From: Squalus acanthias
Lineage: Eukaryota
DNA: 64,000 bases
Assembly: GCA_030390025.1 (NCBI GenBank)
Contig: CM059432.1
Span: 46,998,001-47,062,000, forward strand
Direction: 5' to 3'
Both the position numbers and the translations under genes were made by a program. Below are positions 2,533 to 50,729 of the stretch, one piece after another (position 1 is the first letter of the stretch; every line of letters starts with the position of its first letter). The notes below the pieces were generated by a model, which was not told the DNA's origin, did no database searches, and saw only the letters and a program-made list of their open reading frames with translations.

Positions 2533-3376
2533 GGGCTGGATTTTGCCAGCCGCAAGGAGGCGGGTATGGAGGCGGGACTGCCGGTAAAGTTGCAGAATTT
2601 GGAGGCGGGTGGCAAGCCTGCCCCCAGCCCGCCTCCGTGCTCTCTTGCCAGGAGGCGGGAAGCCGTTCTGCCCCGGGTCCCGTCTCCTCGAGGCGGGAAA
2701 GGGATTAAATCCTATTAACTGCCTGTTAACAGGTAGTTAACAGGCAGAAAATAGGATTAGCCCCATTTTTCCATCTGAAGTGCAGGCTTCCCGACCTTGG
2801 GGAACCCCGCCGGGGTGGAAGAGTCGAGTAGGAGGTCTGCGGGGGTTGAAGGGGTCTGAAAGTGCAATGTAGAGGTGAGTGATGGGTGCAAGTGTGGAGT
2901 GGTAAGTATGTAAGGTGAGTGTAAAGTATTAGAAAATGCTCACTTACCTTTGTTTCTGCCTGCAGCCTTCAGCCGCTGTGAAGCCGGAGTCCCGACATCT
3001 CCATTGTAGATTTCACAGACTGGCTGTTGGATCCTCCGAACCAACAGCCAGGTGATTTCTGCAAAGTTGAAAGGTTTGATGACTCCTGAACACAATGACT
3101 CATCAAACTACACAGAATGTCAGTGTTTGACAGCTTCACAGAGCTGGCAAACACTGACATTTCTTCTTTCAAAAAATCTTGAAAATGGTACGTCATACGT
3201 TGACGTGCTCTGTCACTGACCTCCCCATAATTGGCCTGCTGAGCCCACTGGGCGGGCTTAACAAGGTCAATCAGGGGAAAATCTCGCTGGTTGGCCAGAA
3301 GCTGATGGAGGTGGGATTGAAAGCCAACAAGCAGCAGTCCCGCCTCCAAAAGCTTCCCATTGACAAAATCCAGCCC
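2533..3376 (+). mobile_element. MITE family A copy, inserted in a LINE fragment
   Basis: TIR GGGCTGGATTTTG..CAAAATCCAGCCC, TSD CAA; homologous to 28151-28937. Confidence 0.8.
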
Positions 3377-4546: not shown

Positions 4547-5857
4547 GTAAGTTTAGAGGCAAAGAGCCAGTTTCGAATGGATTACGCAGCACGCATTAAT
4601 TAATCTACTATGGCATTTAATCATGGAAATTTATTAGCAATGTGTCCAGAGATAATGTAATTATTAATATGTACTAGTGTTCAGAGACTATAGTCTTGTG
4701 GAATCTTATTATGCGTTTATTTTCATCACACTAATTTTGATTTTTTAACATGATGTAGAAACAAAAGTAGCTGAGAATATTTCACAATGTTGGATTTTCA
4801 ATATTGGGAATGAAGTTTGAAGGACTAAATAGCCTTCCCTTACTTTATCAACCTCTTTTAGGGAATTGAATGAGTATGATCGAGTCCATAATAGAGTAGA
4901 TTATATATGGGTTTCAGAAGGAACAGACTTAATGAGCTAAATGGCCTTTTCTTATTCCGTGGCCTCACCTTTCCTCAGAAAGTGACTGGAGGATATGCAG
5001 TTTTGCACCGACACACAGAAAAATATAATTTTTATTCAGAAATGTGATGGTTTCAGTCAGCTGTTTGCTGAAGTTATTGGTATCTACTAAGAAAACACAT
5101 TATAAATAAGAAGTCACACAACACCTAGTTATTATAAATAGGAGCATTCACCCAAATAACAGTACGGCCAGTGTTTGATTTTCAGAAATGACAGGTAAAT
5201 TCTTGAGTCTTCCTGTTCCTCACTCTCACTTCCTGTTGTCATGCTTTAGTCATGCTTTGGTGACATTAATAATGCCTCTATGACATTTAATAATGCTTTA
5301 AGGGTAACAATAACACCTGTTTTTATTACTTTTAATAGCTAACACTGTAACACCTGTTATTAAATCCTCCCATTGAATCACTCAGCTCCACCTGCCAATT
5401 TATTTTTCTTCCATGATAAACACAATAAACACAATTCAAAGTGATTAACTGTGAGCAACATCATTGGAGATTCACTGGCAGCATTAAAATATTTTATATT
5501 TACATTTGACAAGAAGTATTTGCATCAAATTCCAAGACTGAATCACATTTGATCATAACACAAGTGTGACCCCGCTTCCCCTACCCCAAATAACCCCTCT
5601 CCGAGTCTGACTAAGCCTCTCAGTTCACCCCACCCCCACCCTATATGACTTCCCTTTACAAAGTTTGAATTCCATTGTCTGTGAAACTGTGTGAAGTCAG
5701 TCGGCCTCATGCAATGACAGGTAATCTGTGAGAGGCTATGGTACTTGCAATTGATGTTTGCGAACAAAGCAGCGGGACATCTCTATTATGTAATGTGAAT
5801 TTCTGGGTGGGAGGCTGGGTGGTGAGCATCTGGGACAGAGTCGGGAGGACTTGGGAC

Positions 5858-7462
5858 TGTAAGGGATACTCTCCTGACCCTGCGTGTCTCGTGGCCTGTG
5901 AGGTTCACGCGGCTCTGTGCAGCCTGTATGTCAGTGCGGGTCTAGGCCTGGTCTCCAGCCAGTCTGGGAACACTAGACACCCCTGTGAGTGGTTCGAATC
6001 ACTCTCCCTTACGGTTCTAGACACTGGACTTAGATGCGAGAGCAGTAATGGAGATAAAACTCATGTAGACTTGGTTTGAACGGTACGAAATGGAAAATCT
6101 TTATTGCATGATACTTAAAATTATGAAATACATGTCATATGCACAGATTAATGACAGTACAATCTTACAAACAGTTATAATCACTCTTAGGGAAACGAGG
6201 AACGACCAGCACAACGTAAATAGGGCACACATTACAAATATCCTTAAACTTTAAACCCTCCCCTATCAATAACTATCCTAAAACTAGCTTCGTAGGATCC
6301 CGAGACTCATGCTCACCACTCGTAATAACTCGGAGAAAATCCCGAATAGCTGATCGGATGTTTTTCACCGCAGCACCCACGTGTTGGTCAGGAGATCTCC
6401 TGGTCCCACTTGTTTACTGCTTCTGCTGCTCGGTCAGTCGGCTGGACCGTCCGCTGTAGTGAAGACCTCTGTTGGTTGGATACAGGGTATGGTGGAGCAC
6501 CGTTGTCAATATCGCTGATACGATGTGTTTGCACAGTCCAGTTATCATCGATGCAATATGTCTTGTTAAAGAAGAAAACTTCCTGTCGAGAAGACTTGGC
6601 TGATCGACCTACAGGCGCGGTCGGGATTTACTGACCGTGGCGATGGATAAGGTCTTCTTCTCTTCTCCTCTCATCTCATCTCATCTCATCTCATCTCATC
6701 CCGGGCCTTCGGTTCCGCTGCCAGCTACCAACATAGGTCTTTGCAACAGTCTTTTACCCAGGAGCAGCCACGATGATAACAGCAGCAAGCGGCAAGAGTC
6801 AAGAGCAAAAGAGCAAGAGTCACGAACACGAGGCAAGAGAGCGAATGGACGGTTTGGGCCTGCAATTATAGTGCACAGTTCTTCCGTTTCCCGCCCAACT
6901 ACAATGTCCATTCTTTTGTTTAAGGTTTGGCGCCCAAAAATGTCCTGTATGGGTGATCTCTGTCCTTAATGGGTTTCGGGGCTACTCCTGAATGTTTGAG
7001 TACCTGTTAATATTTCTCCCATTGTCAAATCGGTCGGTGTTCCCCCTGGAGGGGTTTGGGGCTTCCAAGTGTCCTGTATAACTACCTGCTAACGGCTCTC
7101 TCATCGTAGAGCCGTTGGGAGTTTACATATTAATGTCCTTTGGATGGGCCCTTGATGGCTTTCCTTTGTACCTGGGAGACCGATTCCAGTATCGATGTTT
7201 ATACTGTAAACCCATAATGTCCTGTGTATTGTCTTCACTGTGCTGAATCGTTATCGATCCTGCAAAAATGTTTATTGGAACGCCATCTTGTCTGCCTGCC
7301 GAAAAGTCTCGAATGTTCTGTCACGCGGTGCGGCGGCCATTTTACAGGCTGCTTGTGTCCAATTTAAACCTGACAGCATTCCGTTGAAATAAAAGCTGTT
7401 TTGAACGAAACTTGTGTTTTCTCCTTATTAAAAATGAAATCGCGATAATTGCGAATTCTACA
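5858..7462 (-). repeat. 3' LTR (1605 bp)
   Basis: Direct repeat of 16839-18443, preceded on the - strand by a polypurine tract. Confidence 0.95.
6100..6105 (-). terminator. Candidate proviral polyadenylation signal AATAAA (3' LTR; copy at 17081-17086)
   Basis: tttatt on the + strand, ~240 bp from the U5 end of the LTR. Confidence 0.55.
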
Positions 7463-7474
7463 GTCCCTCCTGTT
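7463..7474 (-). promoter_or_regulatory. Polypurine tract
   Basis: - strand AACAGGAGGGAC immediately before the TG of the 3' LTR. Confidence 0.7.
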
Positions 7475-7884: not shown

Positions 7885-10236
7885 TTACACTGCGCTCTCA
7901 TCGTGCACGCGCACGTAACGTTCTCGCCACTCTCCCGTGTTCTCATGCTTGGTGAGGCGCTTGTCTCTTTTACAATGTATGAACAAAAGGTATACTACAA
8001 TAAACACTTGACAGACGACTAAAATGTGGGAGGCTATTCTGACCCATGAGGGCACTTCAATATTCGTGAACAGATTCCACCACGGTGGAACCACTATGTC
8101 CAAAATGTCTGTACCTATCTCGACAGTTTTCTGCTCTAAGGTATAAAAATGCTTTTGTGACACCGCGACGGCTTTCAGAAGTTTGGTTAAATGCTCGGGG
8201 AGAGGGGGAATGAGGTACCCAAAATGTGCGACAAATCGCTGCAAGTCGGTACAATTCTCTTTTACTGTGAGATGAACAGTGGATGGTTCAGGGATTGGGA
8301 TAATTCGCTGTTGTGCTACTTGAACTTCAGCCCTGGGTTTAAAACAGAAACTGCTGTCACTCACCGGACACCGGCTACGGTTTCCATGCTGGTAGTGTTG
8401 CGCTGCAGTGGTAACACAATATGTTCCACCCCCGATGTATGCTACCTGCGGAGGCACATGATCTTGGGCCATTGCCTCCATGGTGCAATTCATGGACTTG
8501 GCGCCAGCCGTTCTGAACCCGCACTGTGGTGTTAAAAAGGCATTCAAGTGCTGGGGGCACAGTATTATGTGTGCTCCCCTGCCACGACAACCAGAGAGAT
8601 CTGTACCTGTCATCGTTTGCTCCCAGCGGATGACGTAAGGTGGAACCGCTGCATAACGAATGTGGGCTCCCCCCTGAATGACACCAATGTTCTCTACCCG
8701 ATACACCGGGGCGGGCTTTGCTGTGTTGCCCAAAACCGGCATGCGTAATACTATTCCCATAATAGTATGGTTTGAACGTCCGCAGTCCACGGGGACTGGG
8801 TAAGCTTCTGAAGCTAGCCTGAGCTGGCACGGACTTAATGCATTCTGAAAAGGGTGGAGCGCCCGCAGGTGTTTGTTACTTATCCAGGACGGGACCAAAC
8901 CTTGTTTTAAATCCTCCAAATTACTGCGGCCCTCGCCCAGTAACCACGCCCCGTAAAGCACGCACACCTCGTTCTGCGCAGCTTGATCGGATGCATTCCG
9001 ATCTTCCCTAATCAGGGCATTTACCGTACGCGCATGTTTCTCCAGCTCTGCTATAATCTCTTTTAAGTGTAGTGTCATGGCTTGGTCCTCGTGCAGACCC
9101 GACCCTACCACTTTATTCTCATCTGTAAGAATATCCTTTAACTGTGTTTTTAAACCATTAATCTGGGTCTGCAGCTCCACACTGTCTAGAGCGTTGACCA
9201 CAGATGTCCCTGTGTTAAAAGCAGTGAACGCATCGTTCACCAAACCCCTTCTTTGCCTCCCTACTTGGTCCAAAACTTCCTGCGGTGCGGTGTATAAACT
9301 TGTCTTATCGATTTCTGCAAAATCAAACTCGTAAAATTGCCTGAACATCTTGGTCAACAGGACCTGGTACAACTGTTCCGTCTTTTTGGGGCACCACTCT
9401 GGTAACCGTACCTCAGTGAGATTTAAAATCACCGAGGCCACCGCGTAATGTACCCCCTGAAATAGTATCTGGTCTGTGGGGACCAGTACCAAACCGTTCC
9501 CGGGTCCCTTACTAGTTTTAGGGCACCCTTCCTCTTCAGTTAGAACCACCGGAATCGTGGGCGGGGCTTTGCGTGGGCGCGTAATGAGCTCAGTGGCATT
9601 TACTGGGATCGGAGAGTATGGGGCTCCGCACCCCCTGGTGCTCGCATCCCACCTCATCCCCTGTCCGTTATCCTGCCACTGGTTAATAAAGAATATGGAG
9701 ATGCCTTTGGGGCAAACGTACTTTGACCCCCACATACAAACATAAATCCCCTCATCTGGTTCCCACCATTTGTCCCAACAGACTTTCACTTGTCCATCTG
9801 TCCCCGTAATTGTCCGATGGGTATTATTACCCAGTCGCTCCCACTCAACCGAAGAGTTCCTCATAGTTTTGCTCAGCTTTCGCAGCCACCACCATCGGCT
9901 CAATGGGACATTCCCACTGCAGGTCAAACAAATCCGTTTGCCGACGGTGACGCTGATCCTGGGTGCGATGATCCGTACTTTGGGGCACATTAAAGAAGTC
10001 TCTTTGTAGGCGAACCCCGATGTGCTGGAATACTCCGTTGAGTTCGTTCCCAGCCATCCTGGCCACCTTCCCTTGTGGAAATAGGTGCTGGTCCCTTCTG
10101 CCTTCCGTCTTCCGGTTCCATCCACCGCGATGGGGGCCGTGTCCCCGGAACATCCAAACACCACGACATCCTTGGTGAGGCCCCGATAGGCCAATCCACA
10201 TCCGATTGCCACGAGCAAAACTAGAAGTCGTTCCAT
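7885..10236 (-). CDS. env: Envelope glycoprotein (783 aa): signal peptide, Ig-like domain, RQRR furin site, class I F-like fusion subunit, TM anchor
   Basis: Hydrophobic N-terminus, RQRR|GLVNDAF, heptad repeats, Cys-rich region, C-terminal TM; splice acceptor (tctgatcacag) 13 nt upstream of the ATG. Confidence 0.85.
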   Translation of the reverse strand: MERLLVLLVAIGCGLAYRGLTKDVVVFGCSGDTAPIAVDGTGRRKAEGTSTYFHKGRWPGWLGTNSTEYSSTSGFAYKETSLMCPKVRIIAPRISVTVGKRICLTCSGNVPLSRWWWLRKLSKTMRNSSVEWERLGNNTHRTITGTDGQVKVCWDKWWEPDEGIYVCMWGSKYVCPKGISIFFINQWQDNGQGMRWDASTRGCGAPYSPIPVNATELITRPRKAPPTIPVVLTEEEGCPKTSKGPGNGLVLVPTDQILFQGVHYAVASVILNLTEVRLPEWCPKKTEQLYQVLLTKMFRQFYEFDFAEIDKTSLYTAPQEVLDQVGRQRRGLVNDAFTAFNTGTSVVNALDSVELQTQINGLKTQLKDILTDENKVVGSGLHEDQAMTLHLKEIIAELEKHARTVNALIREDRNASDQAAQNEVCVLYGAWLLGEGRSNLEDLKQGLVPSWISNKHLRALHPFQNALSPCQLRLASEAYPVPVDCGRSNHTIMGIVLRMPVLGNTAKPAPVYRVENIGVIQGGAHIRYAAVPPYVIRWEQTMTGTDLSGCRGRGAHIILCPQHLNAFLTPQCGFRTAGAKSMNCTMEAMAQDHVPPQVAYIGGGTYCVTTAAQHYQHGNRSRCPVSDSSFCFKPRAEVQVAQQRIIPIPEPSTVHLTVKENCTDLQRFVAHFGYLIPPLPEHLTKLLKAVAVSQKHFYTLEQKTVEIGTDILDIVVPPWWNLFTNIEVPSWVRIASHILVVCQVFIVVYLLFIHCKRDKRLTKHENTGEWRERYVRVHDESAV

Positions 10237-10519: not shown

Positions 10520-13500
10520 TTAAATCCTGAGAAGGCTGCTGCGAGCTCTTCCCGACGGTGGGAGGGCACTGACCCTTCCCTCTGATCTGCCGCAGCCTGT
10601 TGCTGCGCTGACCCTTTCCTCTGATCTGCCGCAGCCTGTTACTGCCTCGATGTGGCCTGTCTCTACCCGGGTTATCTTAACCTGAAACTTACGCCCTGGG
10701 GCAGCCTGTGGACCTGACCACGTCTTCCTGGGCTGGGGTACTCTGCTTGACCTACGGGGAATTGCTATGGGCGGGGGCTCCGTGACGGACGGACCGGGTC
10801 CCGAGACCTTCAACGGGATGACCTGGGGTTCCATCACAGGCGCCAGCCCCGCCTCCGCTGACTCCGCCTCCCTAACCTCGGGGCTGGCAGTTCGGGGCCC
10901 CGCCCTGCTCGGCCCAGCAGGCGGCCCTTCACTCGCGAACTCTGCCTCCCCTGAGGACTGGACGTTCAAAGCGGGCGGCCACACCTCTGGGAACCACATA
11001 GCGGCTGGCCCGGCCTCCTCTAGCTCCTTCCTCCTGCTGTCGGGACCTGCAGCTTGTGTGTCCACCCCGTATGGATCTCTACCTAGCGGCCCCAATCCTT
11101 CCAGACCGTTCCTCTGAAACCACCCGTCATCATCACTATGCTCATCTGCACTATCCTCATCTGACCAGGGTACCCTGGGGTCCTCGTCATCTAACCCCCA
11201 ACTCCAGAAAAACGCTGCATGATCGTCCGGGATGTCCCTTCCCCTGATGCAAGCTGCTACGCCTGCCTGTGTGCCTTGTGGTCCTACCTGGGGCTGTGTT
11301 TTCCCATTGGCGGGATTTACCCCTGTAGTTTTCCCTTGCGCACCCGGCTGGTACAGTTTACATTGGTTTATGTGGAACCACTTAGTGCGCCGAGGTACTT
11401 TTACGGCGTAAACCATGGGACTCGCCTTGTCTACAATGTTGTAGGGTCCCATATACAGTGGTTCCAGACTCCCTACTCTGGCGTAGTTTCTGACCATGAC
11501 CTGGTCTCCTACTTCCCACTCCCGCGTTTTGCGGGGTTCCAGCAACAAGCGATTGCCCTGGTGCTGCCTTCCCATGTTCCCAGCCGCCTGCTCATAAACT
11601 TGCTTCAGGCGCTCCAAGAGAGTTTGGGCGAACTTGTCCCTGCTGATCTCTTGAAGCTGACCCTCAGTGAGCACCGGGGCTAGCACATGGGTGGGGGTTC
11701 GCATGAGCCTGCCGGTCATTACCTCGTGCGGGGAGTACCCCGTACTTTTTGACTGACTGGCCCGGACCCCCATGAGGACTAAAGGCAGAACTTCCGCCCA
11801 TTTTTGGGGCGAGTTCCTAGTCTCTTTCCTCAATTTCTCCTTCAGGGTCCGGTTCATACGTTCAACAATCCCGGATGACTGGGGATTGTGTGCTACGTGC
11901 CACTTCCCTTCAATGCCCAAAAGCATGAGGGTGTTCTGCATCACCTGGCCGGTGAAATGACTCCCTTGGTCTGACTCCACGAAACGGGGGAGTCCCCACC
12001 GCGAGAACACTTCCCGGACCAAGATTTTTGCTGTACCCAGTGCCGTAGCTGTTCGACAAGGGAAGGCTTCCACCCACTTGGAAAACACATCCACCAGGAC
12101 GAGGCAGTACTTATAACCTCCCTGGGTGGTGGGCAGGGGTCCTATATAGTCGATCTGTATCGACTGCCATGGTCCCTCTACCCTTCTTACGTGTCCCATG
12201 GGCACCTTCCTTTTCTGGGGGTCTGGGTTGTTTGCAGCGCACACAAGACAGTTTGCACAGAACTCGCGGACTTGTTCCCTGAGCCCTGGCCACCATCCCG
12301 CTTGCTCTACCCGTTGCCAGGTAACCTCGGGCCCGGGGTGCCCTGCCCCTGGTCCCTCGTGAGCCAACTGGAGGAATTCCCTCCTGTGCTGCTGCGGCAC
12401 AACCCACTGCTCCTCGCGGAACAGCATGCCTTCCTTTACTGAGAGGGTTGCCGTACTGTACGGACCTTCTACCTGCCTCCCCTCAGCAATCGTTTTTAGG
12501 ACTGCTTTTAGGGCGGGATCCTGGGCTTGGACGGTCTTGAGGTCTAGGGGCAATGCTACCCTGGTGTTCCCGGTATTCCCGTCCCCACCTCGGACCGCTG
12601 CTATGGGTCCGGTTCTATAGGGGTTCCAGAAAGTACCGTCGCGGGCACCCTCCCTGGCTAGCGCATCCGCCTGCCGGTTGCCCTCCCCACGGGGCTCTGT
12701 GGAGGAGTGAGCTTTCACCTTATGGATGAAAATCTCCCCTTCCTCCCCTACTGCTGCTGCTAAGATCTTCTCCAGCAAGGGCTTTACCGTTAAAGGTCGC
12801 CCGTCCGCGGAGGTGTATCCACGGCGGGACCAAATGGCCAGGTATTCCGTACACGAATTGCAGGTGAACATACTGTCCGAGCAAATCGTGTATGGGGTTG
12901 GGAAAATGTCTGGGTGGGTTACCACGTACACCACGGCAGACAGCTCAGCCTGCTGCGCGCTCATGGTGCTAGGGAGCTTGATCGCCAGGGCAAGGTCTGC
13001 CGCAGGGTCATAAACTCCACACCCTGTGAGTCGCTCGCCAGCAGATACTGTGCTAGACCCATCAACATAAATCTCGCGCCCAGTGGGATGTATCCCGGCC
13101 CGTAAACCTATGTTGACTTCCCACACCCCCTCCACCGAACACCGGTGGGCTGTACCGGGGTATACCAAATTGGCCGCAAGCCTGGGCTCGCAAAGACCTT
13201 TTACTCTGATGTCCAACTGGGAGAGAAGAAGGGTCCAACGCGCAATGCGTGCGCTGCTTACGGTCCCGTCTTTAATCCTCCCATCCAGAAGCATCTTAGT
13301 TGGTGTGTGATGTGTGAGGAGAGTGATGGGAGAGAGCCCTGTGAAGATCGCTGATCTTTTCACAGCCCAATGCGTGGCTAAAAGGTGCCTTTCGCAATTG
13401 GAAAAACTTCTCTCCACATCCGTTAATACCCTGGATGAATAGACAACCGGCCTTAGCTTGCCGTGACGCTCTTGGAGCAGCACGGCGCTTAAGCTGTCTC

Positions 13501-15022
13501 CGCTGGCAGCTACCTCCAGGAAAAACTCCTTCCCCCCATCTATGGCCCCTAAGGCTGGCGCGGTCTGCAGATCTCTTTTTAACTTCTCGAAGGCTGCTTG
13601 GCAGCCCTCGTCCCAAAGCCACTCTACTCCCTTATGGAGGAGTCGGAGGAGCGGCGCCGCTGTGGCCGCATAATCCTCGATAAAATCCCTGCAGTAACCG
13701 GTCAGTCCCAAGAAGGACCTCACACCCCTTACGTTGTTGGGAATCGGTAATTCTTGTACCGACTCCCTCCTTGCTTTGTCTATGGCTCTTTCCCCAGCGC
13801 GTAGGGTCAGTCCCAGGAATTTTACTTCCTGCTGACCGATACGTGCTTTCTTTGGGTTTACTTTAAAACCCTTTCTCGCTAACAGCTCCAATAACTCGTC
13901 CAGCAGTGGTCCGTGCTCCTCCCTTGAGTCCGTAAATAGGAGCAAATCATCCACATACTGTACTATCTGATTGGGCTGACTAAACTCCTTTAAACTTCCT
14001 GCCATACACTGGTGAAAAATACTGGGGCTATTGTGGAAACCTTGTGGCAAGCAGTTCCACGTGTACTGTTGCCCTTTAAACGTAAAGGCAAACTTGTACT
14101 GGTCCTCTCGCCGCAGCGGGATGGACCAAAAACCGTTCGAGATATCCAGCACCGTGAACGTGGTCGCGGACGCTGGGATGCTCCCTATTAGGTCAGCAAC
14201 TGCTGCTACTGTGGGCGCGCAGGCGGGGATGTTACTGTTAAGGACTCTGTAGTCCACCGTGGCTCTCCACGAATTATCCGGCTTCCTAACCGGCCATAAT
14301 GGGGAGTTCACGTGTGTGGCTATCGGCCTCAACACGCCCTGCTGCACCAAGGAAGACATTGCTGCCTCCATATCGGGTTCTGCTTCTTTGGGGAAGTTAT
14401 ACTGCTTTTGGGGTCGGGTCATGGGGTCCCCATCTACGCTGACCTCAAACCCGACCACCCTCCCACAATCGTGCTTGTGGGTTGCAAACGCGTGCATATT
14501 ATCTGTCACGTACGTTTGCATGTCCGTTGGGACATCTGCGACCATAAGCCTGAGGTCGTAGCCTCCGGATGGCTGTACGGTACACAGGACCCCTGTTTCT
14601 TCCTCCCCTTGAATTACCATTACCTCGCCTTTTTCCCCTTTAGCCCCCCAGAGACAGTGATTTCTGAGGTCCACGAGGATCCCGTGTCCCGCTAGCAGAT
14701 CGGACCCGAGAATACCTCTTCCACCCCCCTTTTGCCATGCCATTAGTATACACTTCCACTTAAGGCGAAGTGTCCCTAAACGAATGGATAGCGGGAGGGA
14801 AAATGTGCCAGCCTGTTCTTTCCCTGTGAACCCTGCTAGCGTGAATGGGACCTTGGTAGATAGCGGCGAGTCAAAAGGGTCATCTGTATGGATTATGGTG
14901 CAAGAAGCTCCCGTGTCCAACAAATAACTGCCCTTTTGTTTCTCTACCTCCATCTCCACCACAGGTCGCCTCCACGCATCATAGCTGAGCGGACACAGGT
15001 AGACGGGCTGTGCTGGTTCTAG
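10520..15022 (-). CDS. pol: Pol (PR-RT-tether-RNase H-IN plus C-terminal extension), in frame with gag after a single TGA
   Basis: LLDTGAS protease; LPQGF and YVDD RT; YVDGSS/AQQAEL/SDS/GNRQAD RNase H; HHCC, QIDY/SDQG/VER DDE integrase; GPY motif. Confidence 0.95.
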   Translation of the reverse strand, partial: LEPAQPVYLCPLSYDAWRRPVVEMEVEKQKGSYLLDTGASCTIIHTDDPFDSPLSTKVPFTLAGFTGKEQAGTFSLPLSIRLGTLRLKWKCILMAWQKGGGRGILGSDLLAGHGILVDLRNHCLWGAKGEKGEVMVIQGEEETGVLCTVQPSGGYDLRLMVADVPTDMQTYVTDNMHAFATHKHDCGRVVGFEVSVDGDPMTRPQKQYNFPKEAEPDMEAAMSSLVQQGVLRPIATHVNSPLWPVRKPDNSWRATVDYRVLNSNIPACAPTVAAVADLIGSIPASATTFTVLDISNGFWSIPLRREDQYKFAFTFKGQQYTWNCLPQGFHNSPSIFHQCMAGSLKEFSQPNQIVQYVDDLLLFTDSREEHGPLLDELLELLARKGFKVNPKKARIGQQEVKFLGLTLRAGERAIDKARRESVQELPIPNNVRGVRSFLGLTGYCRDFIEDYAATAAPLLRLLHKGVEWLWDEGCQAAFEKLKRDLQTAPALGAIDGGKEFFLEVAASGDSLSAVLLQERHGKLRPVVYSSRVLTDVERSFSNCERHLLATHWAVKRSAIFTGLSPITLLTHHTPTKMLLDGRIKDGTVSSARIARWTLLLSQLDIRVKGLCEPRLAANLVYPGTAHRCSVEGVWEVNIGLRAGIHPTGREIYVDGSSTVSAGERLTGCGVYDPAADLALAIKLPSTMSAQQAELSAVVYVVTHPDIFPTPYTICSDSMFTCNSCTEYLAIWSRRGYTSADGRPLTVKPLLEKILAAAVGEEGEIFIHKVKAHSSTEPRGEGNRQADALAREGARDGTFWNPYRTGPIAAVRGGDGNTGNTRVALPLDLKTVQAQDPALKAVLKTIAEGRQVEGPYSTATLSVKEGMLFREEQWVVPQQHRREFLQLAHEGPGAGHPGPEVTWQRVEQAGWWPGLREQVREFCANCLVCAANNPDPQKRKVPMGHVRRVEGPWQSIQIDYIGPLPTTQGGYKYCLVLVDVFSKWVEAFPCRTATALGTAKILVREVFSRWGLPRFVESDQGSHFTGQVMQNTLMLLGIEGKWHVAHNPQSSGIVERMNRTLKEKLRKETRNSPQKWAEVLPLVLMGVRASQSKSTGYSPHEVMTGRLMRTPTHVLAPVLTEGQLQEISRDKFAQTLLERLKQVYEQAAGNMGRQHQGNRLLLEPRKTREWEVGDQVMVRNYARVGSLEPLYMGPYNIVDKASPMVYAVKVPRRTKWFHINQCKLYQPGAQGKTTGVNPANGKTQPQVGPQGTQAGVAACIRGRDIPDDHAAFFWSWGLDDEDPRVPWSDEDSADEHSDDDGWFQRNGLEGLGPLGRDPYGVDTQAAGPDSRRKELEEAGPAAMWFPEVWPPALNVQSSGEAEFASEGPPAGPSRAGPRTASPEVREAESAEAGLAPVMEPQVIPLKVSGPGPSVTEPPPIAIPRRSSRVPQPRKTWSGPQAAPGRKFQVKITRVETGHIEAVTGCGRSEERVSAATGCGRSEGRVSALPPSGRARSSLLRI

Positions 15023-16834
15023 TCATGGGGCACTATTAGACGGTCCTGCGGCACCTACGGGGCCGGTTGCGACCGCCACCTGTCCACGCGCATTCAAAAC
15101 CATCTTGCGCATGACTCCTAACACTGCCTCGAGGTCTTCGGGAGAGGTGGGTGCCTTTGCTTCCTTAGCCGGGACAGGCGCCTGGGCTCGGACCGCGGGA
15201 TTTTTATCCTTGGAATCCTTCCAAGGGTTCCTGCAGTGCTTGCGCCAGTGCCCTGTCTTCCCACACCCGTAACAGGCATTACTTGCCTGTGGGGCGCGAT
15301 TACCCTCCTGATGCCACTCTCTTTGAGCCGGGGCTGCGGGTCGTACCTCATGTACTCTTCCCTTAAAGGGACGTGTTGCCATACCCCTTATGTTACGGTA
15401 ACCTAACGTGAGTCGATTCAAGACCGACTCTTCCGTAAGGTTGAGGTCATTGGGATCGAACCAGGCTTTTGCCTGCTCTCTAACGGCTGGTAAACTGTTG
15501 GCTATTATGCACCTAAGCCAATGAATTAAAGCGGCGCCTTCCACATCTTCGCGCTCGGGCGCACCTAGACAGCTGCGCTCATATACTGGCCACAGCCTGT
15601 CGGCAAAAACCTTCGGGGGTTCTCCCTCCATCTGCACTGTCTGTCCCACTCTAGCAAACGGACCTCCGTCGTTCGCTCCCACTACTTCTAGGACCTCATT
15701 TTTCAATTCCTCATAACTTTTATTACCCCTCTTGCTATCGCCTGAGAGACACTGAAGGACCGAGCTATCTAATGAGAACAGCAGCATTTTTGCTGTCTCC
15801 CCATCATCGCAGCCGTTGATGGCTGCGGCTTGCTCAACTTCCCTAAAATGTACGGAAGGGTCGTCTATCTCGGTCAGCTTCCTTACGTGGTTTATCATAG
15901 CCCTCAGCTGATGTGAACTGTGAGGCAACACCAGCTGTCCGAGGAGATCCCCCGGTTCTTCCCCACCGTTCCTGCTTGGGCCCCTTTTAATCCCCGTTAC
16001 TGGATACAACGATCCCTTTTCTACTTCCTTTTCAACGGGCTCTTTTGTTTCTTCCGTTGCTTCCTCCCTAACCCAGGTTTCTGAATAGCTGGGTGGCGCG
16101 GAGGGCGCAGTGGCTACTACTTCTTCCGCTTTACATGGTGGGGAATTTCTAAATCTCTCATTTACTAGCGGCTGGCGTGCCGACGGATTAATAAGGCACA
16201 CCATGCCGTTCGCATTATTCACGGCCTTTTTGAGGCTCTCTATCTCTTTTTCGCAGGCGCTATGGTCGGCTCCCTGAAACTTATCCTCAAGGGCCAACTT
16301 ATACGCCGACCTAACCCCCATTAAGCTCTCTTCTTGAGTTCTTATCTGGGCAGCTTGACGGTTACATCTTTCCTTCATCCTACTCTCGTTTAATTTTGCT
16401 TCAGTGATCTGGCACTCGAGATACTCTACCCTTGTTTTAAGGTAGCTGGAGACTTCCTGGCTTTCCTGGCGTAACTCATTTAAACTCTTAATGAGCGCCT
16501 CCCCTCCAGAAACCTTCTCCTCCATTTCCTCCTCTAACTGCTTGATTCGAGCGGTTAGCGCTGTATTGGTCTGGTTTGAAATCTGAACCTGCCTTTTGTA
16601 GCACATAAGCCAGACTGCTTTCTCAACTGCCTTTTTATGCTCCTTACTATCCGTCCACCTTTCAGCTGCCTCTAATGGGCTCTTATCCGCTAACAGTTCG
16701 CTTATCCACTTTTTCGTTAGATTAACCTTTCCAAATACGTAATCCGCTATCTTTTCCTGCATCACATTTCGTACAGTCATTCCAAAATCTAACACACTAC
16801 CCTCTCGCTGCCAGTGTCCTGCCGCGGTCGCCAT
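15023..16834 (-). CDS. gag: Gag (603 aa): N-terminal coiled coil, PSAP/PPSY late domains, capsid-like region, CCHC zinc knuckle
   Basis: CYGCGKTGHWRKHC (15233-15274), APSAPPSY, position between PBS and pol. Confidence 0.9.
   Translation of the reverse strand: MATAAGHWQREGSVLDFGMTVRNVMQEKIADYVFGKVNLTKKWISELLADKSPLEAAERWTDSKEHKKAVEKAVWLMCYKRQVQISNQTNTALTARIKQLEEEMEEKVSGGEALIKSLNELRQESQEVSSYLKTRVEYLECQITEAKLNESRMKERCNRQAAQIRTQEESLMGVRSAYKLALEDKFQGADHSACEKEIESLKKAVNNANGMVCLINPSARQPLVNERFRNSPPCKAEEVVATAPSAPPSYSETWVREEATEETKEPVEKEVEKGSLYPVTGIKRGPSRNGGEEPGDLLGQLVLPHSSHQLRAMINHVRKLTEIDDPSVHFREVEQAAAINGCDDGETAKMLLFSLDSSVLQCLSGDSKRGNKSYEELKNEVLEVVGANDGGPFARVGQTVQMEGEPPKVFADRLWPVYERSCLGAPEREDVEGAALIHWLRCIIANSLPAVREQAKAWFDPNDLNLTEESVLNRLTLGYRNIRGMATRPFKGRVHEVRPAAPAQREWHQEGNRAPQASNACYGCGKTGHWRKHCRNPWKDSKDKNPAVRAQAPVPAKEAKAPTSPEDLEAVLGVMRKMVLNARGQVAVATGPVGAAGPSNSAP
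16816..16833 (-). promoter_or_regulatory. Primer-binding site, complementary to the tRNA-Arg(TCG) 3' end
   Basis: - strand TGGCGACCGCGGCAGGAC, 5 nt after the 5' LTR; complement of the vertebrate tRNA-Arg(TCG) end GTCCTGCCGCGGTCG-CCA (tRNA sequence recalled). Confidence 0.8.
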
Positions 16835-16838
16835 TTTC

Positions 16839-18443
16839 TGTAAGGGATACTCTCCTGACCCTGCGTGTCTCGTGGCCTGTGAGGTTCACGCGGCTCTGTG
16901 CAGCCTGTATGTCAGTGCGGGTCTAGGCCTGGTCTCCAGCCAGTCTGGGAACACTAGACACCCCTGTGAGTGGTTCGAATCACTCTCCCTTACGGTTCTA
17001 GACACTGGACTTAGATGCGAGAGCAGTAATGGAGATAAAACTCATGTAGACTTGGTTTGAACGGTACGAAATGGAAAATCTTTATTGCATGATACTTAAA
17101 ATTATGAAATACATGTCATATGCACAGATTAATGACAGTACAATCTTACAAACAGTTATAATCACTCTTAGGGAAACGAGGAACGACCAGCACAACGTAA
17201 ATAGGGCACACATTACAAATATCCTTAAACTTTAAACCCTCCCCTATCAATAACTATCCTAAAACTAGCTTCGTAGGATCCCGAGACTCATGCTCACCAC
17301 TCGTAATAACTCGGAGAAAATCCCGAATAGCTGATCGGATGTTTTTCACCGCAGCACCCACGTGTTGGTCAGGAGATCTCCTGGTCCCACTTGTTTACTG
17401 CTTCTGCTGCTCGGTCAGTCGGCTGGACCGTCCGCTGTAGTGAAGACCTCTGTTGGTTGGATACAGGGTATGGTGGAGCACCGTTGTCAATATCGCTGAT
17501 ACGATGTGTTTGCACAGTCCAGTTATCATCGATGCAATATGTCTTGTTAAAGAAGAAAACTTCCTGTCGAGAAGACTTGGCTGATCGACCTACAGGCGCG
17601 GTCGGGATTTACTGACCGTGGCGATGGATAAGGTCTTCTTCTCTTCTCCTCTCATCTCATCTCATCTCATCTCATCTCATCCCGGGCCTTCGGTTCCGCT
17701 GCCAGCTACCAACATAGGTCTTTGCAACAGTCTTTTACCCAGGAGCAGCCACGATGATAACAGCAGCAAGCGGCAAGAGTCAAGAGCAAAAGAGCAAGAG
17801 TCACGAACACGAGGCAAGAGAGCGAATGGACGGTTTGGGCCTGCAATTATAGTGCACAGTTCTTCCGTTTCCCGCCCAACTACAATGTCCATTCTTTTGT
17901 TTAAGGTTTGGCGCCCAAAAATGTCCTGTATGGGTGATCTCTGTCCTTAATGGGTTTCGGGGCTACTCCTGAATGTTTGAGTACCTGTTAATATTTCTCC
18001 CATTGTCAAATCGGTCGGTGTTCCCCCTGGAGGGGTTTGGGGCTTCCAAGTGTCCTGTATAACTACCTGCTAACGGCTCTCTCATCGTAGAGCCGTTGGG
18101 AGTTTACATATTAATGTCCTTTGGATGGGCCCTTGATGGCTTTCCTTTGTACCTGGGAGACCGATTCCAGTATCGATGTTTATACTGTAAACCCATAATG
18201 TCCTGTGTATTGTCTTCACTGTGCTGAATCGTTATCGATCCTGCAAAAATGTTTATTGGAACGCCATCTTGTCTGCCTGCCGAAAAGTCTCGAATGTTCT
18301 GTCACGCGGTGCGGCGGCCATTTTACAGGCTGCTTGTGTCCAATTTAAACCTGACAGCATTCCGTTGAAATAAAAGCTGTTTTGAACGAAACTTGTGTTT
18401 TCTCCTTATTAAAAATGAAATCGCGATAATTGCGAATTCTACA
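16839..18443 (-). repeat. 5' LTR (1605 bp)
   Basis: Direct repeat of 5858-7462 at offset 10981, TG..CA ends, followed by the PBS. Confidence 0.95.
17846..17852 (-). promoter_or_regulatory. Candidate LTR TATA box (TATAATT); YY1-like motifs further upstream in U3
   Basis: - strand cacTATAATTgcag; CGCCATCTTG and GCGGCCATTTT motifs near 18262-18325. Confidence 0.4.
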
Positions 18444-18510
18444 GGACAGAGGCCTAGAAATTGCAGTACGCTGGAAACCTCCCGGTAACCATGCAGGCCA
18501 AGGCTAATGG

Positions 18511-24790: not shown

Positions 24791-25330
24791 AATCTAGAGG
24801 TAAAACCATTCTGCTTTAACACATGAATACTAATACTTTCACAAATCAGAATGCAACTTAACAGGCATGTAAATATTCAGCTGAAAGTCTTGTTTTTACT
24901 AGCATTATCTTTTCAGATCTTGACCTGCCCGTAGAGAGCTTTACCCTGGGCTGCTATTTAATTCCACTTAGCAATACAGTTTTGTCAAAGGATGAAGGTG
25001 AGTCACCTAGAGCTACTCTTTTTGAATATGCCAGCATCAGGTGAAATAACAGTATTGGTAGCAGCCTGATCACGTTGGTTTCAGAAATATTTGCATGGAG
25101 ATTGATGTGTAGTACAGGGAGATATAACATGATTGCATTGGGTAAATGCCCTATGTTCTGTGTTACTAAACCATACAGCCCAGAAAGGTCGAAGTTTCAA
25201 TCTATGGTCTATGTTGATTCAGTTGATCTCAGCCAGGGTGATAGTTAGGGGTGTCACCTGGTTACAGAGAGCAAAGATTGGCTAGGGTTCCTGCTACTGA
25301 TCACTAATCAGTAACCTCAACAGACTCTTA

Positions 25331-26052
25331 GGGCTGGATTTTGATACTGGGGCGGGTTGGGGTCGTGTCATCCACTTTTCGTGTTATCCACCCGACTGCA
25401 ATTGGATGTGGGAGATTGATGCGATTTTCACCTAATTGGGCAATTGAGTTCCAGCATGTGGGAACCCATGAACCAATTAGTGTTTTGAGTCTGAAAGTCG
25501 CCTCTGAAGATGTCATCATTGCTGCTGCATTGAAGGTCTTCAGAGACTGCCTGGCCTTTGCTGTGAGAGGACCTGGATGCAAAATGAGCAGCAGCAGCCC
25601 TAAGTCTGCTCCCAGATATTTTTACACCAGAGAGAGAGAGAGAGAGATTTTGTTTTGCACCACCACTCCCAGATATGTCTCCTCCACCACCACTCCAGAT
25701 GCCAGCCAGCCACTCACTCGCTAATAGTGAGCCATCCAGCCACTGATAGTCAGCTATCCAAATGTGCTCCTGCCAGGTTTCACATTCGTGGTTCAGATCA
25801 GGCGTGCTTCATGGAGAACAAGGGTTAAAATCACAAAGGCCTTTCAAAACGGCATTATAGAGCCAATTTAGTGCTTGTTAAGGGCCTTAACAGCCTATCC
25901 CGTCTCTTAAAGGCGGGACGCAGTCGGGACCAGCAGACATGATTTCATCAAAATTGCATGGAGGCGGACTTGTGCCTGCCTGCCAGTTTTTGCAATTTTA
26001 ACCCCCCACACGCCTCCAAACCCGCCTCCATGGGTCAATGAAAATCCAGCCC
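25331..26052 (+). mobile_element. MITE family C copy
   Basis: TIR GGGCTGGATTTT..AAAATCCAGCCC. Confidence 0.8.
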
Positions 26053-26131
26053 CTAAAGTACTTCATTGGCTGTGAAGTGCTTTGGAACATTTTGAGGACA
26101 TAAAAGGTGCTATATAGATAGCAGAACTTCT

Positions 26132-26799
26132 GGGCTGGATTTTCATTGACCCGTGGAGGTGGGTTTGGAGGCATGTGGGGGGTTAAAATTGCGAAAACTA
26201 GCGGGCGGGCACAAGCCTGCCCCATCCCGCCTCCAAGCAATTTTCATTAAATCGTGTCTGCTGGTCCCGACTCTGTCCCGCCTCTAAGAGGCGGGATAGG
26301 CTGTTAAGGCCCTTAACAAGCACTAAATTGCCTCTATAATGCCATTTTGAAAGGCCTTTGTGATTGTAACCCTTTTTCTACGTGAAGCACGCCTGTTCTG
26401 AACCACGAATGTGAAATCTGGCGGGAGCACATTTGGATAGCTGACTCTGGCTGGCTGGCTACATATCTGGGAGTGGTGAAGGAGACATATCTGGGAGTGG
26501 TGGTGCAAAAATATCTGGGAGCAGACTTAGGGCTGCTGCTGCTCATTTTGCATCCAGGTCCTCTCACAGCAAAGGCCAGGCAGTCTTTGCAGACCTTCAA
26601 TGCAGCAGTAATGATGACATCATCAGAGACGACTTTCAGACTGAAAACACTAATTGGTTCATGGGTTCCTACATGCTGGAACTCAATTGCCCAATTAGGT
26701 GAAAATCGCATCAATCTCCCACATCCAATTGCAGTCGGGTGGATAACACGAAAAGTGGATGACACGACCCCAACCTGCCCCAGTATCAAAATCCAGCCC
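26132..26799 (-). mobile_element. MITE family C copy, inverted relative to 25331-26052
   Basis: Near-identical reverse complement (mirrored ORF translations) with the same TIRs. Confidence 0.8.
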
Positions 26800-27284
26800 A
26801 ATGTGTCCCTTGGTCCGCCAGGTGGGTAGAGTTAAAATCCTCATGCTTTTTCTTTCTCTTTATACATGTCTCATGTATAATCAACACCGGGAAGTTCACA
26901 GCATACAAGAGCCAAATGCACAAACAAACATCTATGGTACTACCACTGCATAATTAAACAAAATTAATTAATTTTTACCATGTCTTGCAGTATATGATTC
27001 TTTTATTGTACAGAAAAGAAAATGTCATATATCAAAACTCCTGACATGACCCCTGTGGGTGGCTGGGAGTTCCCATGGCATTAAAATTGGACCAGATGGC
27101 ATATCTCAGCCAGAGCTTCCCTACTGAGCTGAGCCTTCATTCACTGCTCCTCTTTTTTGGTAGACCTGCTACCTAGGATATTATTCACGGTGAGTCTTGA
27201 GCTTCCTATACCTTCTGAACTTCTAGGCAACCCTCCTGCTGCCCCATCTCCAATGGCCTCTACTTTCTGACAAAAAATCTCCTA

Positions 27285-30200
27285 CATAAGAACATAAGAA
27301 ATAGGAGCAGGAGTAGGCCATTTGGCCCCTCGAACCTGCTCCGCCATTCAATAAGATCATGGCTGATCCGATCTTGACCTCAACTCCACTTTCCCGCCTG
27401 CTCCCCATAACCCTTGACTCCCCTGTAGCTCAAATATCTGTCTATCGCCACCTTGAATATATTCAATGACTCCGCCTCCACAGCTCTCTGGGGTAGAGAA
27501 TTCCAAAGATTCACGACCCTCTGAGAGAAGAAATTCCTCCTCATCTCCGTTTTAAATGGGTGACCCCCTATTCTGAAATATGCCTCCTAGTTCTAGATTC
27601 CCCCACGAGGGGAAACATCCTCCCTGCATCTACGCTGTCAAGCCCCCTCAGAATCTTATATGTTTCAATAAGTTCACCTCGATTCTTCTAAACTCCAATG
27701 AGTATAGGCCCAACCTTTCTTCATAAGACAACCCCTTCATCTCAGGAATCAAACTAGTGAACCTTCTCTGAACTGCCTCCAATGCAAGTATATCCCTCCC
27801 TAAATAAGGAGACCAAAACTGGACACAGTACTCCAGATGTGGTCTCACCAGTGCCCTGTACAGTTGTAGCAAGACTTCCCTACTTTTATACTCCATCCCC
27901 CTTATAGGGGCCAACATTCCATTTGCCTTCCTAGTTACTTGCTGTACCTGCATGCTAACTTTTTGTGTTCCATGTACGAGGACCCCTAGATCCCTCTGTA
28001 CCACAGCATTTTGTAGTCTCCATTTAAATAATAATTTGCTTTTTTATTCTTCCTACCAAAGTGGATAACTTCACATTTTCCCACATTATACTCCATCTGC
28101 CAAATTTTTGCCCACTCACTTAATCTATCTATATCCCTTTGCAGACTCCTGGGGCGGGATCTTGCCAGCCTTGGGGAGGCGGGTATGGAGGCGGGACTGC
28201 CATCTTGCCAGGAGGCGGGTAGCCGTCCCACGCCGGGTCCTGTCTCCTTGGAGGCGGGATGGGATTACAGCCACTTAACTGCCTGTTAACAGGTAGTTAA
28301 CAGGCAGAAAATAGGCTTATCACCATTTTGCCCACACAAGTGCGGGCTTCCCGAAGGCTCCAAACCCCGCCATGGTCACCGAGGCGAGTAGTGGGTCTGC
28401 GGGGGTCGGAGGGGTGCAAAAGTGTGCTGTAGAGGTAAGTGATGGGTGCAAGTGTGGAGAGGTGAGTATCTGAGATAAGTGCAAAGTGTTAGAAAAAGTG
28501 TACTTACCTTTGTTTCTTCTTGTAGGTTTCAGTCGGTTTGTATGCGGAGAGTCTTACACCTCCGCGGTAGAGATGACAGATGGCCGTTGCATTCTCCAAT
28601 GCAACAACCATCTAATTTCTGCAAAAGAAAGAGGTTTGATGAGGTGTTGAATTCAAGACCTCATCAAACTACAGAGAATGTCAGTGTTTGACAGCTTCAC
28701 AGAGCTGTCAAACTATGACAATTCATCTGTCAAAAGTTTTTGACAGATGAAACATCATACGTTGACGTTCTCTGCAATCGGCTTTCCCTTAATTGGCCTG
28801 CTAAGCCCGCTGGGCGGGCTTAACAAGGTCAATCAAGGGAAAATAGCGTGAGTTGGCCAGAAGTTGATGGAGGCGGGACTGAAACCCGACAAGTGGGAGT
28901 CCCGCCTCCAAAAGCTCCCCATTGGCAAAATCACCCACTTGTGTCTTCTTCACAGCTTGCTTTCCCATCTATCTTTGTATCAACAGCAAATTTGGCTACA
29001 GTACACTCGGTCCCTTCATCCAAGTCATTAATATAGATTGTAAATAGTTGAGGCCCTAGCACTGATCCCTGTGGCACCCCACTAGTTACAGTTTGCCAAC
29101 CTGAAAATGACCCATTTATCCCGACTCTATGTTTTCTGTTAGTTGGCCAATACACTATCCATGCTAATATATTAACCCCAACCCCGTGAACTCTTATCTT
29201 GTGCAGTAACCTTTTATATGGCACCTTATCGAATGCCTTCTGGAAATCCAAATACACTACATCTACTGGTTCCCCTTTATCCACCCTGCTCGTTACATCC
29301 TCAAAGAACTCTAGTAAATTTGTCAAACACAATTTCCCTTTCATAAAACCATGTTGACTCTGTTTGATTGTATTATGATTTTCTAAATGTCCTGCTATTA
29401 CTTCCTTAATAATGGATTCCAGCATTTTCCCAATGACAGATGTTAGGCTAACTGGCCTATAGTTTCCTGCTTTCTGTCTCCCTTCTTTCTTGAATAGGGG
29501 CGTTACATTTGCGGTTTTCCAATCCGCTGGGACCTCTCCAGAATCCAAGGAATTTTGGTAGATTACAACCAACGCATCCACTATCTCTGCAGCCACTTCT
29601 TTTAAGACTCTAGGATGCATGCCATCAGGTCCAGGGGACTTGTTGTCCTTTAGTCCCATAAGTTTGCCTCGTACTTTTTCTCTAATGATAGTGATTGTTT
29701 TAAGTTCCTCCCTCCCTATAGCCCCTTGATTATCAATTATTATTGGAATGTTTTTAGTGTCTTCTACCGTGAAGACCGATACAAAATATTTGTGTAAAGT
29801 CTCTGCCATTTCCCTGTTTCCCATTATTAATTCCCCAGTCTCATCCTCTAAGGGACCAACGTTTACTTTAGCTACTCTCTTCCTTTTTATATATCTTTAG
29901 AAGCTCTGTCTGTTTTTATATTTTTTGTTAGTTTACTCTCATAATCTATCTTCTCCCTCTTTATTATTTTTTTAGTCATCCTTTGCTGCTTTCTCAAAAT
30001 TTCCCAATCCTCTGGCCTACCACTAATCTTCGCAACATTGTATGCCTTTTCTTTCAATTTGATACCATCCTTAATTTCCTTAGGTTAGCCACGGATGGTT
30101 CATCCTTCTCGTAGTCTTTCTTTCTCACTGGAATAAACCTTTGCTGAGAGTTATGAAATATCTCCTTAAATGTCTGCCACTGCTTATCTACCGTCTTACC

Positions 30201-50615: not shown

Positions 50616-50729
50616 CTCTTCTTTCTTGACTTTACATTTTTCCACGTCTGGATTGTAGAGGATATCCCTGCTGGTGCACTTGTCATGGCTATGCTCTCAA
50701 TCCTGAGAGGCAACTACCTCTCCAATTTA

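What the first reader, a model, noticed from the sequence alone, without database searches (positions are those of the whole stretch)
7885..9500. Env fusion module looks like a class I F protein rather than retroviral SU/TM
Seen: RQRR|GLVNDAFTAFNTGTSVVNALD (9247-9258) followed by a long heptad repeat. About 450 residues follow the cleavage site, including a Cys-rich region (PPYVI..TDLSGC..ILCP..C..C..YC), a second heptad and the TM. There is no CX6CC or immunosuppressive motif. Knowledge: this long post-cleavage subunit is the layout of paramyxo/pneumovirus and baculovirus/errantivirus F proteins. Inference: envelope exchange between retroelements and RNA or DNA viruses.
Basis: partly seen in the sequence, partly recalled or inferred. 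Interest (0 to 1): 0.7.

Follow-up and report, generated by a model that had tools for sequence, protein, structure and literature searches.

The report
F-type envelope in intact shark retrovirus
A very young, intact retrovirus integrated in what is likely a shark or ray genome has an envelope protein predicted to fold like the fusion protein of measles- and RSV-type viruses, with a probable antibody-like domain in front; this envelope is likely an old family trait shared with snakehead-fish retrovirus rather than a recent theft, which bears on where retroviral envelopes came from.

Summary
Observation confirmed. The region is the 3' two-thirds of an intact 783-aa env (10236-7885, minus strand) in a provirus with identical 1,605-nt LTRs and open gag and pol. 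RQRR lies at 9258-9247, 453 residues follow, and there is no CX6CC or ISD motif. The predicted core matches paramyxo-/pneumovirus F and foamy-virus Env (Foldseek E 4e-11; top 13 VIA rows), although Pfam and sequence searches miss it.

The 'exchange' inference is not shown. F-like Env is already published for lokiretroviruses and foamy viruses. Here it travels with one Pol lineage through sharks, rays, frogs and coelacanth. Pol lacks the loki signatures; its closest named virus is snakehead retrovirus (SnRV), though the tree does not resolve this. SnRV's own Env aligns to this Env family's profile (hhalign E 2e-5; 12.0 bits vs at most 1.8 in 300 shuffles), and walleye epsilonretrovirus Envs are structural hits. 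A probable Ig-like domain precedes the core.

Best reading: a furin-activated class Ib fusogen with its own attachment head, native to an old SnRV-like lineage. The scan noted this family many times elsewhere in this genome. New variant of a known kind; interest 0.5.

The parts
16839..18443 (-). 5' LTR, 1,605 nt, TG...CA, identical to the 3' LTR
5858..7462 (-). 3' LTR, 1,605 nt; 4-bp target-site duplication GGAC at 5854-5857 and 18444-18447
16816..16833 (-). Primer-binding-site candidate starting TGG five bases inside the 5' LTR; tRNA-Arg identity is recalled, not tested
   Evidence: recall
15023..16885 (-). gag ORF (first ATG 16834): N-terminal coiled coil, capsid region, one CCHC knuckle; ends in TGA followed by CTAG, in frame with pol
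10520..15022 (-). pol ORF, 1,500 aa: protease, RT (YVDD), tether, RNase H, integrase, long C-terminal tail
10186..10236 (-). Env signal peptide candidate (residues 1-17, mean hydropathy 1.75)
9688..9975 (-). Probable Ig-like domain in the pre-cleavage subunit (about Env 88-183; Cys...Trp...DxGxYxC)
9259..9525 (-). F2-like pre-cleavage part of the F core (Env 238-326), two conserved cysteines
9247..9258 (-). Furin-type site RQRR (Env 327-330)
9187..9246 (-). Fusion-peptide candidate (Env 331-350; moderately hydrophobic, mean 0.68)
8887..9189 (-). Heptad repeat A / long helices
8191..8886 (-). Cys-rich beta domains of the F core
8086..8190 (-). Heptad repeat B
7885..8037 (-). Transmembrane helix (8037-7975), 29-aa tail, stop
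7463..7471 (-). Short purine-rich tract next to the 3' LTR (PPT candidate)

Best explanation
This is the intact env gene of a very recently integrated endogenous retrovirus, likely of a cartilaginous fish and likely of the snakehead-retrovirus-like group, and its product is predicted to be a paramyxovirus-F-type (class Ib) fusion protein that likely carries its own Ig-like attachment head. Shown in sequence: signal peptide, RQRR site, 453-residue post-cleavage subunit with two heptad regions, Cys-rich middle, TM and short tail. Predicted: an F fold built from both subunits. Inferred by analogy with F and foamy Env: trimer, furin cleavage that frees the fusion peptide, a disulfide holding the subunits together, HRA extension and HRA/HRB six-helix-bundle collapse that fuses the membranes. 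Because the provirus has no separate attachment gene, the roughly 220-residue N-terminal extension with the Ig-like domain is the likeliest receptor-binding part (inferred, untested). The Env type is old in this lineage, not a recent capture.
For: Provirus: identical 1,605-nt LTRs, 4-bp TSD, three open frames. Fold: model pLDDT 73; Foldseek PDB best hPIV3 F E 4.3e-11, 35 of 35 listed rows F proteins; VIA top 13 of 50 rows are F (11) or foamy Env (2), Z 10.9-7.4, first unrelated row 6.4; BFVD rows include lispivirus glycoproteins, baculovirus F, paramyxovirus F, WEHV-1 Env (2.9e-9), WDSV Env (3.9e-6), feline foamy Env (1.2e-4); Atlas best cluster PF00523 88%, score 0.93. Lineage: same RT-RH query scores 341.9 bits on L001 Pol (L001 matches the SnRV RT row and the 10,688-nt length) vs 242 on MLV-type, 221 on foamy, 147 on Ty3 chains; L001 shares gag-stop-pol in one frame, a coiled-coil Gag with one CCHC, and a Pol tail. 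SnRV Env homology: hhalign E 2.3e-5 over 281 columns with CP..GP..G start, cleavage site and cysteines in register; HMM 12.0 bits vs max 1.8 in 300 shuffles; Atlas gives F/Baculo_F clusters for L001 Env too. Env relatives named from sharks and rays of several orders, 3 frogs and coelacanth; a frog Pol of the same clade runs into an Ig-bearing Env start, 48% identical to P0097. Ig: canonical motif, Pfam Ig_3 E 0.017, a source names a shark relative 'Ig-like domain-containing', the 50 listed VIA rows are Ig-type chains.
Against: No sequence-level hit to F: Pfam none, PDB sequences none. Global TM-scores are only 0.37-0.43 and rmsd is high; pLDDT is under 50 at the fusion peptide and before HRB. 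The Ig model is poor (pLDDT 41; Z 5.0-6.0, a range that can be a common arrangement), Pfam Ig scores are below cut-off, and the N-terminal profile beats all 100 shuffles in only 2 of 8 relatives tested, not in L001 Env. The Pol tree does not resolve the SnRV link: window plus frog/coelacanth Pols 86/96, SnRV unresolved; a grouping with gamma/epsilon-like rows is not rejected, p-AU 0.21; no loki, foamy or ERV-L sequence was in the tree. Direct BLASTP of the two Envs is not significant, and hhalign probability is 76%. No fusion, cleavage or expression was tested.
Confidence: 0.8

Rival explanations
1. The lineage took its env from a negative-strand RNA virus or a baculovirus-type DNA virus, in an exchange specific to this lineage.
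For: Best BFVD rows are lispivirus-type glycoproteins (E 1.8e-14), a fish filovirus GP and baculovirus F, all above any retroviral Env; best PDB rows are paramyxovirus F. Such swaps are documented for other glycoproteins (PMC11521997, passages).
Against: No sequence similarity to any such protein among 49 hits in 1.84 billion; all named hits are vertebrate genome proteins. Structural rank among predicted models at 9-14% identity does not give descent; foamy Env is tied with most F rows in VIA (Z 8.5 vs 8.8-9.2). SnRV Env is homologous, so a capture would predate the split of these lineages.
Confidence: 0.2
2. The element is a lokiretrovirus, the first found in cartilaginous fish, and its F-like Env is simply the known loki Env.
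For: Loki have F-like Env with an RXKR site, dual RNase H and CGIN1/NYNRIN-like integrase (PMC7947760); nearest Pol relatives are labelled 'NYNRIN-like'; loki Envs show the same GP..G start of the core by eye.
Against: Published loki RT rows share a PFGY motif and other signatures absent here; this RT has LPQGF and LDISNGFWS like the SnRV row (by eye). Loki Pol has a long insert between protease and RT, absent here. The loki Envs seen start the core right after the signal peptide, without the 220-residue extension (4 of 23 rows seen). Loki were found in 0 of the four chondrichthyan orders screened.
Confidence: 0.07
3. A recombinant: a canonical (SnRV-like or epsilon-like) gag-pol that long ago picked up a loki-type env and then an Ig domain.
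For: Env/Pol incongruence is frequent in anamniote retroviruses (10.1101/2021.11.23.469661); the Env core resembles loki Env by eye while Pol does not.
Against: Foamy Env and walleye-virus Env have the same fold, so each would need its own swap; Pol and Env of this clade co-occur from sharks to frogs.
Confidence: 0.25

Closest known systems
Snakehead retrovirus (SnRV) and SnRV-like ERVs, including CmiERV lineage I of elephant shark (PMC4422223; PMC4977317)
   Same: Highest-scoring named Pol; gag-stop-pol in one frame, coiled-coil Gag with one CCHC; Env core homologous with the cleavage site in register.
   Different: Pol only about 35% identical; SnRV Env is 1,134 aa with a 500-residue N-terminal part and a long tail, this one 783 aa with a 29-aa tail; no 3' accessory ORF of 60 aa or more on the sense strand between env and the LTR; sister relation unresolved.
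Lokiretrovirus Env (PMC7947760)
   Same: Retroelement Env with signal peptide, basic site, fusion peptide, coiled coils, TM, related to F.
   Different: Loki Env is a minimal F without the N-terminal extension in the rows seen; RT signatures and Pol layout differ.
Foamy virus Env, class Ib fusogen (PMC11468914; PDB 8rm0, 8rm1)
   Same: Retroviral Env with the F core (VIA Z 8.5, 273 aligned, rmsd 6.2).
   Different: Foamy Env inserts its receptor-binding domain between the subunits and has an N-terminal membrane anchor; here the extra domain is N-terminal to the core and Ig-like; Gag has a CCHC knuckle.
Paramyxovirus / pneumovirus F (PF00523) and baculovirus/errantivirus F (PF12259)
   Same: Predicted fold, order of parts, long post-cleavage subunit.
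   Different: No significant profile match; 7-16% identity in structural alignments; paramyxovirus F relies on a separate attachment protein (established knowledge).

Membership tests
Class Ib (F-like) fusion protein | F core fold with both subunits contributing | tested here: met
   Predicted model only; aligned range spans pre- and post-cleavage parts (model 14-423) against RSV, hMPV, NDV F and foamy Env
Class Ib (F-like) fusion protein | Basic cleavage site followed by fusion peptide, HRA, HRB, TM | tested here: met
Class Ib (F-like) fusion protein | Trimer that fuses membranes | not testable with these tools
   no assay; no trimer model run
Pfam PF00523 / PF12259 | Profile score above the curated cut-off | tested here: not met
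Gamma-type Env | CX6CC and ISD in a short TM subunit | tested here: not met
   TM subunit is 453 aa
Lokiretrovirus | F-like Env with basic site | tested here: met
Lokiretrovirus | Tether plus second RNase H | tested here: met
   shared by all retroviruses
Lokiretrovirus | RT carries the signatures of the loki clade | tested here: not met
   by-eye comparison with published rows; no tree with loki sequences could be built
SnRV-like retroviruses | RT/Pol clusters with SnRV | tested here: inconclusive
   best named score and shared motifs, but trees unresolved
SnRV-like retroviruses | gag-stop-pol in one frame; Env homologous to SnRV Env | tested here: met
SnRV-like retroviruses | tRNA-Arg primer site | not tested
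   recalled match only
Spumaretrovirinae / foamy-like ERV | Gag without CCHC, Pol made separately from Gag (recalled features) | tested here: not met
   one CCHC knuckle and in-frame gag-pol
Immunoglobulin superfamily domain | Cys-Trp-Cys core with DxGxYxC and beta-sandwich fold | tested here: inconclusive
   motif present; Pfam E 0.017, under cut-off; low-confidence model hits Ig chains at Z 5-6

The most novel reading that the evidence does not exclude
The F-like class Ib envelope is the ancestral envelope of vertebrate retroviruses, kept in lokiretroviruses, foamy viruses, SnRV-like viruses and walleye epsilonretroviruses, with gamma- and beta-type Envs as later replacements; this shark/frog/coelacanth lineage turned the minimal F into a self-sufficient entry protein by capturing a host immunoglobulin domain as its receptor-binding head, and is still invading a cartilaginous-fish germ line.
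Probability: 0.35. Interest if true: 0.75.

Novelty: new variant of a known kind. Interest (0 to 1): 0.5.

Why it matters
Wang and Han (PMC9040795, passages) prefer separate origins for loki and canonical retroviral Env because the two seemed unrelated, and a review (PMC9967133, passages) treats the walleye-virus Env as a late oddity. A canonical-type Pol lineage with an F-like Env, plus evidence that the Env of the exogenous SnRV and walleye viruses belongs to the same fold, adds branches on which the F-like type must be either inherited or regained. That makes the origin of retroviral Env testable with a structure-based tree and with one structure of a natural Env. An Ig-like head on an F core would be a third way, beside coronavirus S1 and the foamy insert, of adding attachment to the F scaffold. 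The core idea, a retroviral Env related to F, is already in print, so the surprise is moderate.

Tried and rejected
Lokiretrovirus was my first guess; dropped after reading the published Pol rows. Pfam and PDB sequence searches for F gave nothing (best profile row gp41 TM region, E 0.15). No whole genome is held, so copy number could not be counted. A single-protein scan of viral contigs found no relative; the alignment scan found one, L001. The third homolog search was wasted on proteins over 2,591 aa and returned gypsy-type rows only. RT-only tree: retroviral rows one clade 100/100, unresolved inside. Env tree: deep branches weak, long-branch warning for L001. Expression: no RNA holder listed; 14 runs from 7 studies and 6 organism labels hold half or more of the env words; 4 of them laid as contigs cover 29-30 of 30 bins with many variant letters and show no env splice joint; this says nothing on transcription. 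SnRV Env is not among the named rows of the 50 listed BFVD matches (3 rows unnamed), and no gamma-type TM is among the 50 listed VIA rows; neither absence is a test. No GT-AG donor/acceptor pair for env was found by a simple pattern. No trimer job was sent. Literature: searches found no paper calling SnRV or SnRV-like Env F-like or describing an Ig domain in such an Env; subscription papers (Calcraft 2024 in Cell; PMC9972966) and bioRxiv supplements were not seen and may bear on this.

Full report
Context. The finding lies in an 815-codon minus-strand frame, 10332-7885, whose first ATG at 10236 gives a 783-aa protein. Upstream lie a 1,500-aa pol frame and a 620-aa gag frame separated by one in-frame TGA. 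Two 1,605-nt LTRs (5858-7462, 16839-18443) are identical, begin TG, end CA and are flanked by a GGAC duplication. Pol has protease, RT, tether, a second RNase H and integrase. So this is an intact, very recently integrated endogenous retrovirus. The host is inferred to be a cartilaginous fish: the three nearest Env relatives are 63-79% identical and come from a skate and a sawshark.

Observation. RQRR is at 9258-9247 and 453 residues follow; no CX6CC, no ISD-type motif; TM at Env 734-754. In an alignment of 37 sequences (36 relatives, chimeric gene models left out), 11 of 13 core cysteines are kept in at least 78% of rows with a residue, and 14 of 23 rows keep a strict basic site. One of 48 relatives has a CX6CC, at the end of its TM.

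Fold. Sequence methods fail: no F family in Pfam for the protein; 0 of 46 relatives hit PF00523 and 1 of 46 hits Baculo_F at E 0.0011, under cut-off; nothing significant in PDB sequences. The model of Env 230-728 has pLDDT 73, pTM 0.56. Foldseek gives 245 PDB matches at E 0.001 or better; all 35 listed are paramyxo-/pneumovirus F, best hPIV3 F at 4.3e-11, TM-scores 0.24-0.43. VIA-align over 48,161 chains ranks 11 F chains and 2 foamy Env chains first (NDV F Z 10.9, 360 aligned, rmsd 15.4; RSV F Z 9.0, 284, 5.5; foamy Env Z 8.5, 273, 6.2); the first unrelated row has Z 6.4. In BFVD the best rows are lispivirus-type glycoproteins, a fish filovirus GP, baculovirus F and paramyxovirus F, then WEHV-1, WDSV and feline foamy Env. 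The Atlas agrees (PF00523 cluster, 0.93).

N-terminal part. About 220 residues precede the core. They hold Cys106, a Trp cluster and DEGIYVC. Pfam Ig_3 scores E 0.017, under cut-off. The model is poor (pLDDT 41), but the 50 listed VIA rows are Ig-type chains at Z 5.0-6.0. A shark relative is named 'Ig-like domain-containing' by its source; another relative has a weak V-set hit. A profile of this region beat all 100 shuffles in 2 of 8 distant relatives. I rate the Ig call probable, not shown.

Lineage. Nearest Pols are 41-45% identical and come from frogs and coelacanth. Lokiretroviruses (PMC7947760; parts 1-3 of 4, supplement part 8 and passages read) have F-like Env and were absent from the four chondrichthyan orders screened. 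Their published RT rows differ from this one at signature motifs, whereas the SnRV row shares LDISNGFWS and LPQGFH (by eye); the 4 of 23 loki Env rows seen lack the N-terminal extension. A scan of viral contigs returned one locus, L001, whose RT matches that SnRV row and whose length equals the published SnRV genome. With one query, L001 Pol scores 341.9 bits against 242, 221 and 147 for MLV-type, foamy and Ty3 chains. Trees put the element among retroviruses (100/100) and with the frog/coelacanth Pols (86/96) but do not fix SnRV's place; the alternative grouping is not rejected (p-AU 0.21). SnRV-like ERVs are known from elephant shark (PMC4422223, part 1 of 2 read) and coelacanth (PMC4977317, passages).

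Origin of the Env. The Env profile aligns to L001 Env over 281 columns, from the CP..GP..G start through the cleavage site to the first cysteines of the beta region (E 2.3e-5, probability 76%), and scores 12.0 bits against at most 1.8 in 300 shuffles; plain BLASTP is not significant. Of 49 relatives in 1.84 billion proteins, I looked up 24 beyond the three already named: 22 carry names of sharks, rays, frogs or coelacanth, 2 are unnamed. A frog Pol model of the same clade runs on into an Ig-bearing Env start 48% identical to relative P0097. So Env and Pol have travelled together for a long time. Foamy Env has the F core by cryo-EM (PMC11468914, passages), and Viro3D maps RSV-F-like proteins across realms (PMC12583693, section 9 and passages). 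A recent capture is therefore unlikely; an ancient one cannot be told from inheritance with these data. PMC9040795 (passages) prefers independent origins for loki and canonical Env; this lineage weakens the premise of that choice.

Mechanism. Shown: order of parts. Predicted: F fold. Inferred from F and foamy Env: trimer, furin cleavage after Arg330, disulfide link (likely Cys282 to Cys425, both kept in 92% of rows; the model's geometry was not inspected), fusion-peptide insertion and six-helix-bundle collapse. Inferred from the lack of a second glycoprotein gene: the N-terminal Ig-containing module binds the cell. The trigger is unknown; expression was not shown.

Novelty. F-like retroviral Env is in print for loki and foamy viruses. 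Searches found no paper that says so for SnRV-like viruses or reports an Ig domain there; the anamniote Env survey covers gamma-type only (10.1101/2021.11.23.469661, parts 1-2 of 6); passages of PMC9967133, PMC11521997, PMC12690878, PMC10435555, PMC13709493, PMC12193657 and 10.1101/2023.10.26.564294 add nothing on it. Subscription papers and preprint supplements were not seen. This scan reached similar readings on other copies in the same genome (consulted after my tests; unchecked notes, not independent support). Verdict: real, new variant of a known kind, interest 0.5.

Noticed in passing
window 15019-15025 (minus): gag ends in TGA followed by CTAG, in frame with pol; recalled as a stop-readthrough context. 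L001 has TAG followed by GGC in the same arrangement.
   Followed up: partly
BFVD rows Q9WHI8, A4GTG3: Envs of walleye epidermal hyperplasia virus 1 and walleye dermal sarcoma virus match the F-like model (E 2.9e-9, 3.9e-6).
   Followed up: no
BFVD row A0A2P1GML9: A fish filovirus glycoprotein is the third-best match (E 2.3e-12), i.e. F-like rather than gamma-type.
   Followed up: no
L001 6131-6460: The start of this virus's Env has a V-x-L-x-C...W...Y-x-C pattern and a weak V-set hit (E 0.14); a possible Ig-like domain, not supported by my N-terminal profile.
   Followed up: partly
window 10520-11330 (minus): About 270 residues of low-complexity tail after integrase in Pol; L001 Pol has a shorter tail with a similar basic RRS-PR motif.
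   Followed up: no
window 5858-7462 and 16839-18443: Unusually long LTR (1,605 nt) with a (TCTCA)n run at 6646-6715 and two AATAAA sites.
   Followed up: no
P0005, P0006, P0071, P0101: Public shark gene models join pieces of this env family to Niban-, cadherin-, zinc-finger- and F-box-type genes; annotation artefacts or exonisation.
   Followed up: no
window 28931-30896, 49047-50696, 52157-52966 (minus): Broken LINE-type endonuclease/RT pieces.
   Followed up: partly
window 58384-58944 and 61117-62439 (plus): Myb/SANT ORF and DDE_Tnp_4 transposase ORF, a PIF/Harbinger-type pair.
   Followed up: partly
window 25318-26812; 2533-3370 vs 28152-28932: Nested inverted repeat with arms of 312 nt (96%) and a dispersed repeat pair at 78-88% identity.
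   Followed up: no
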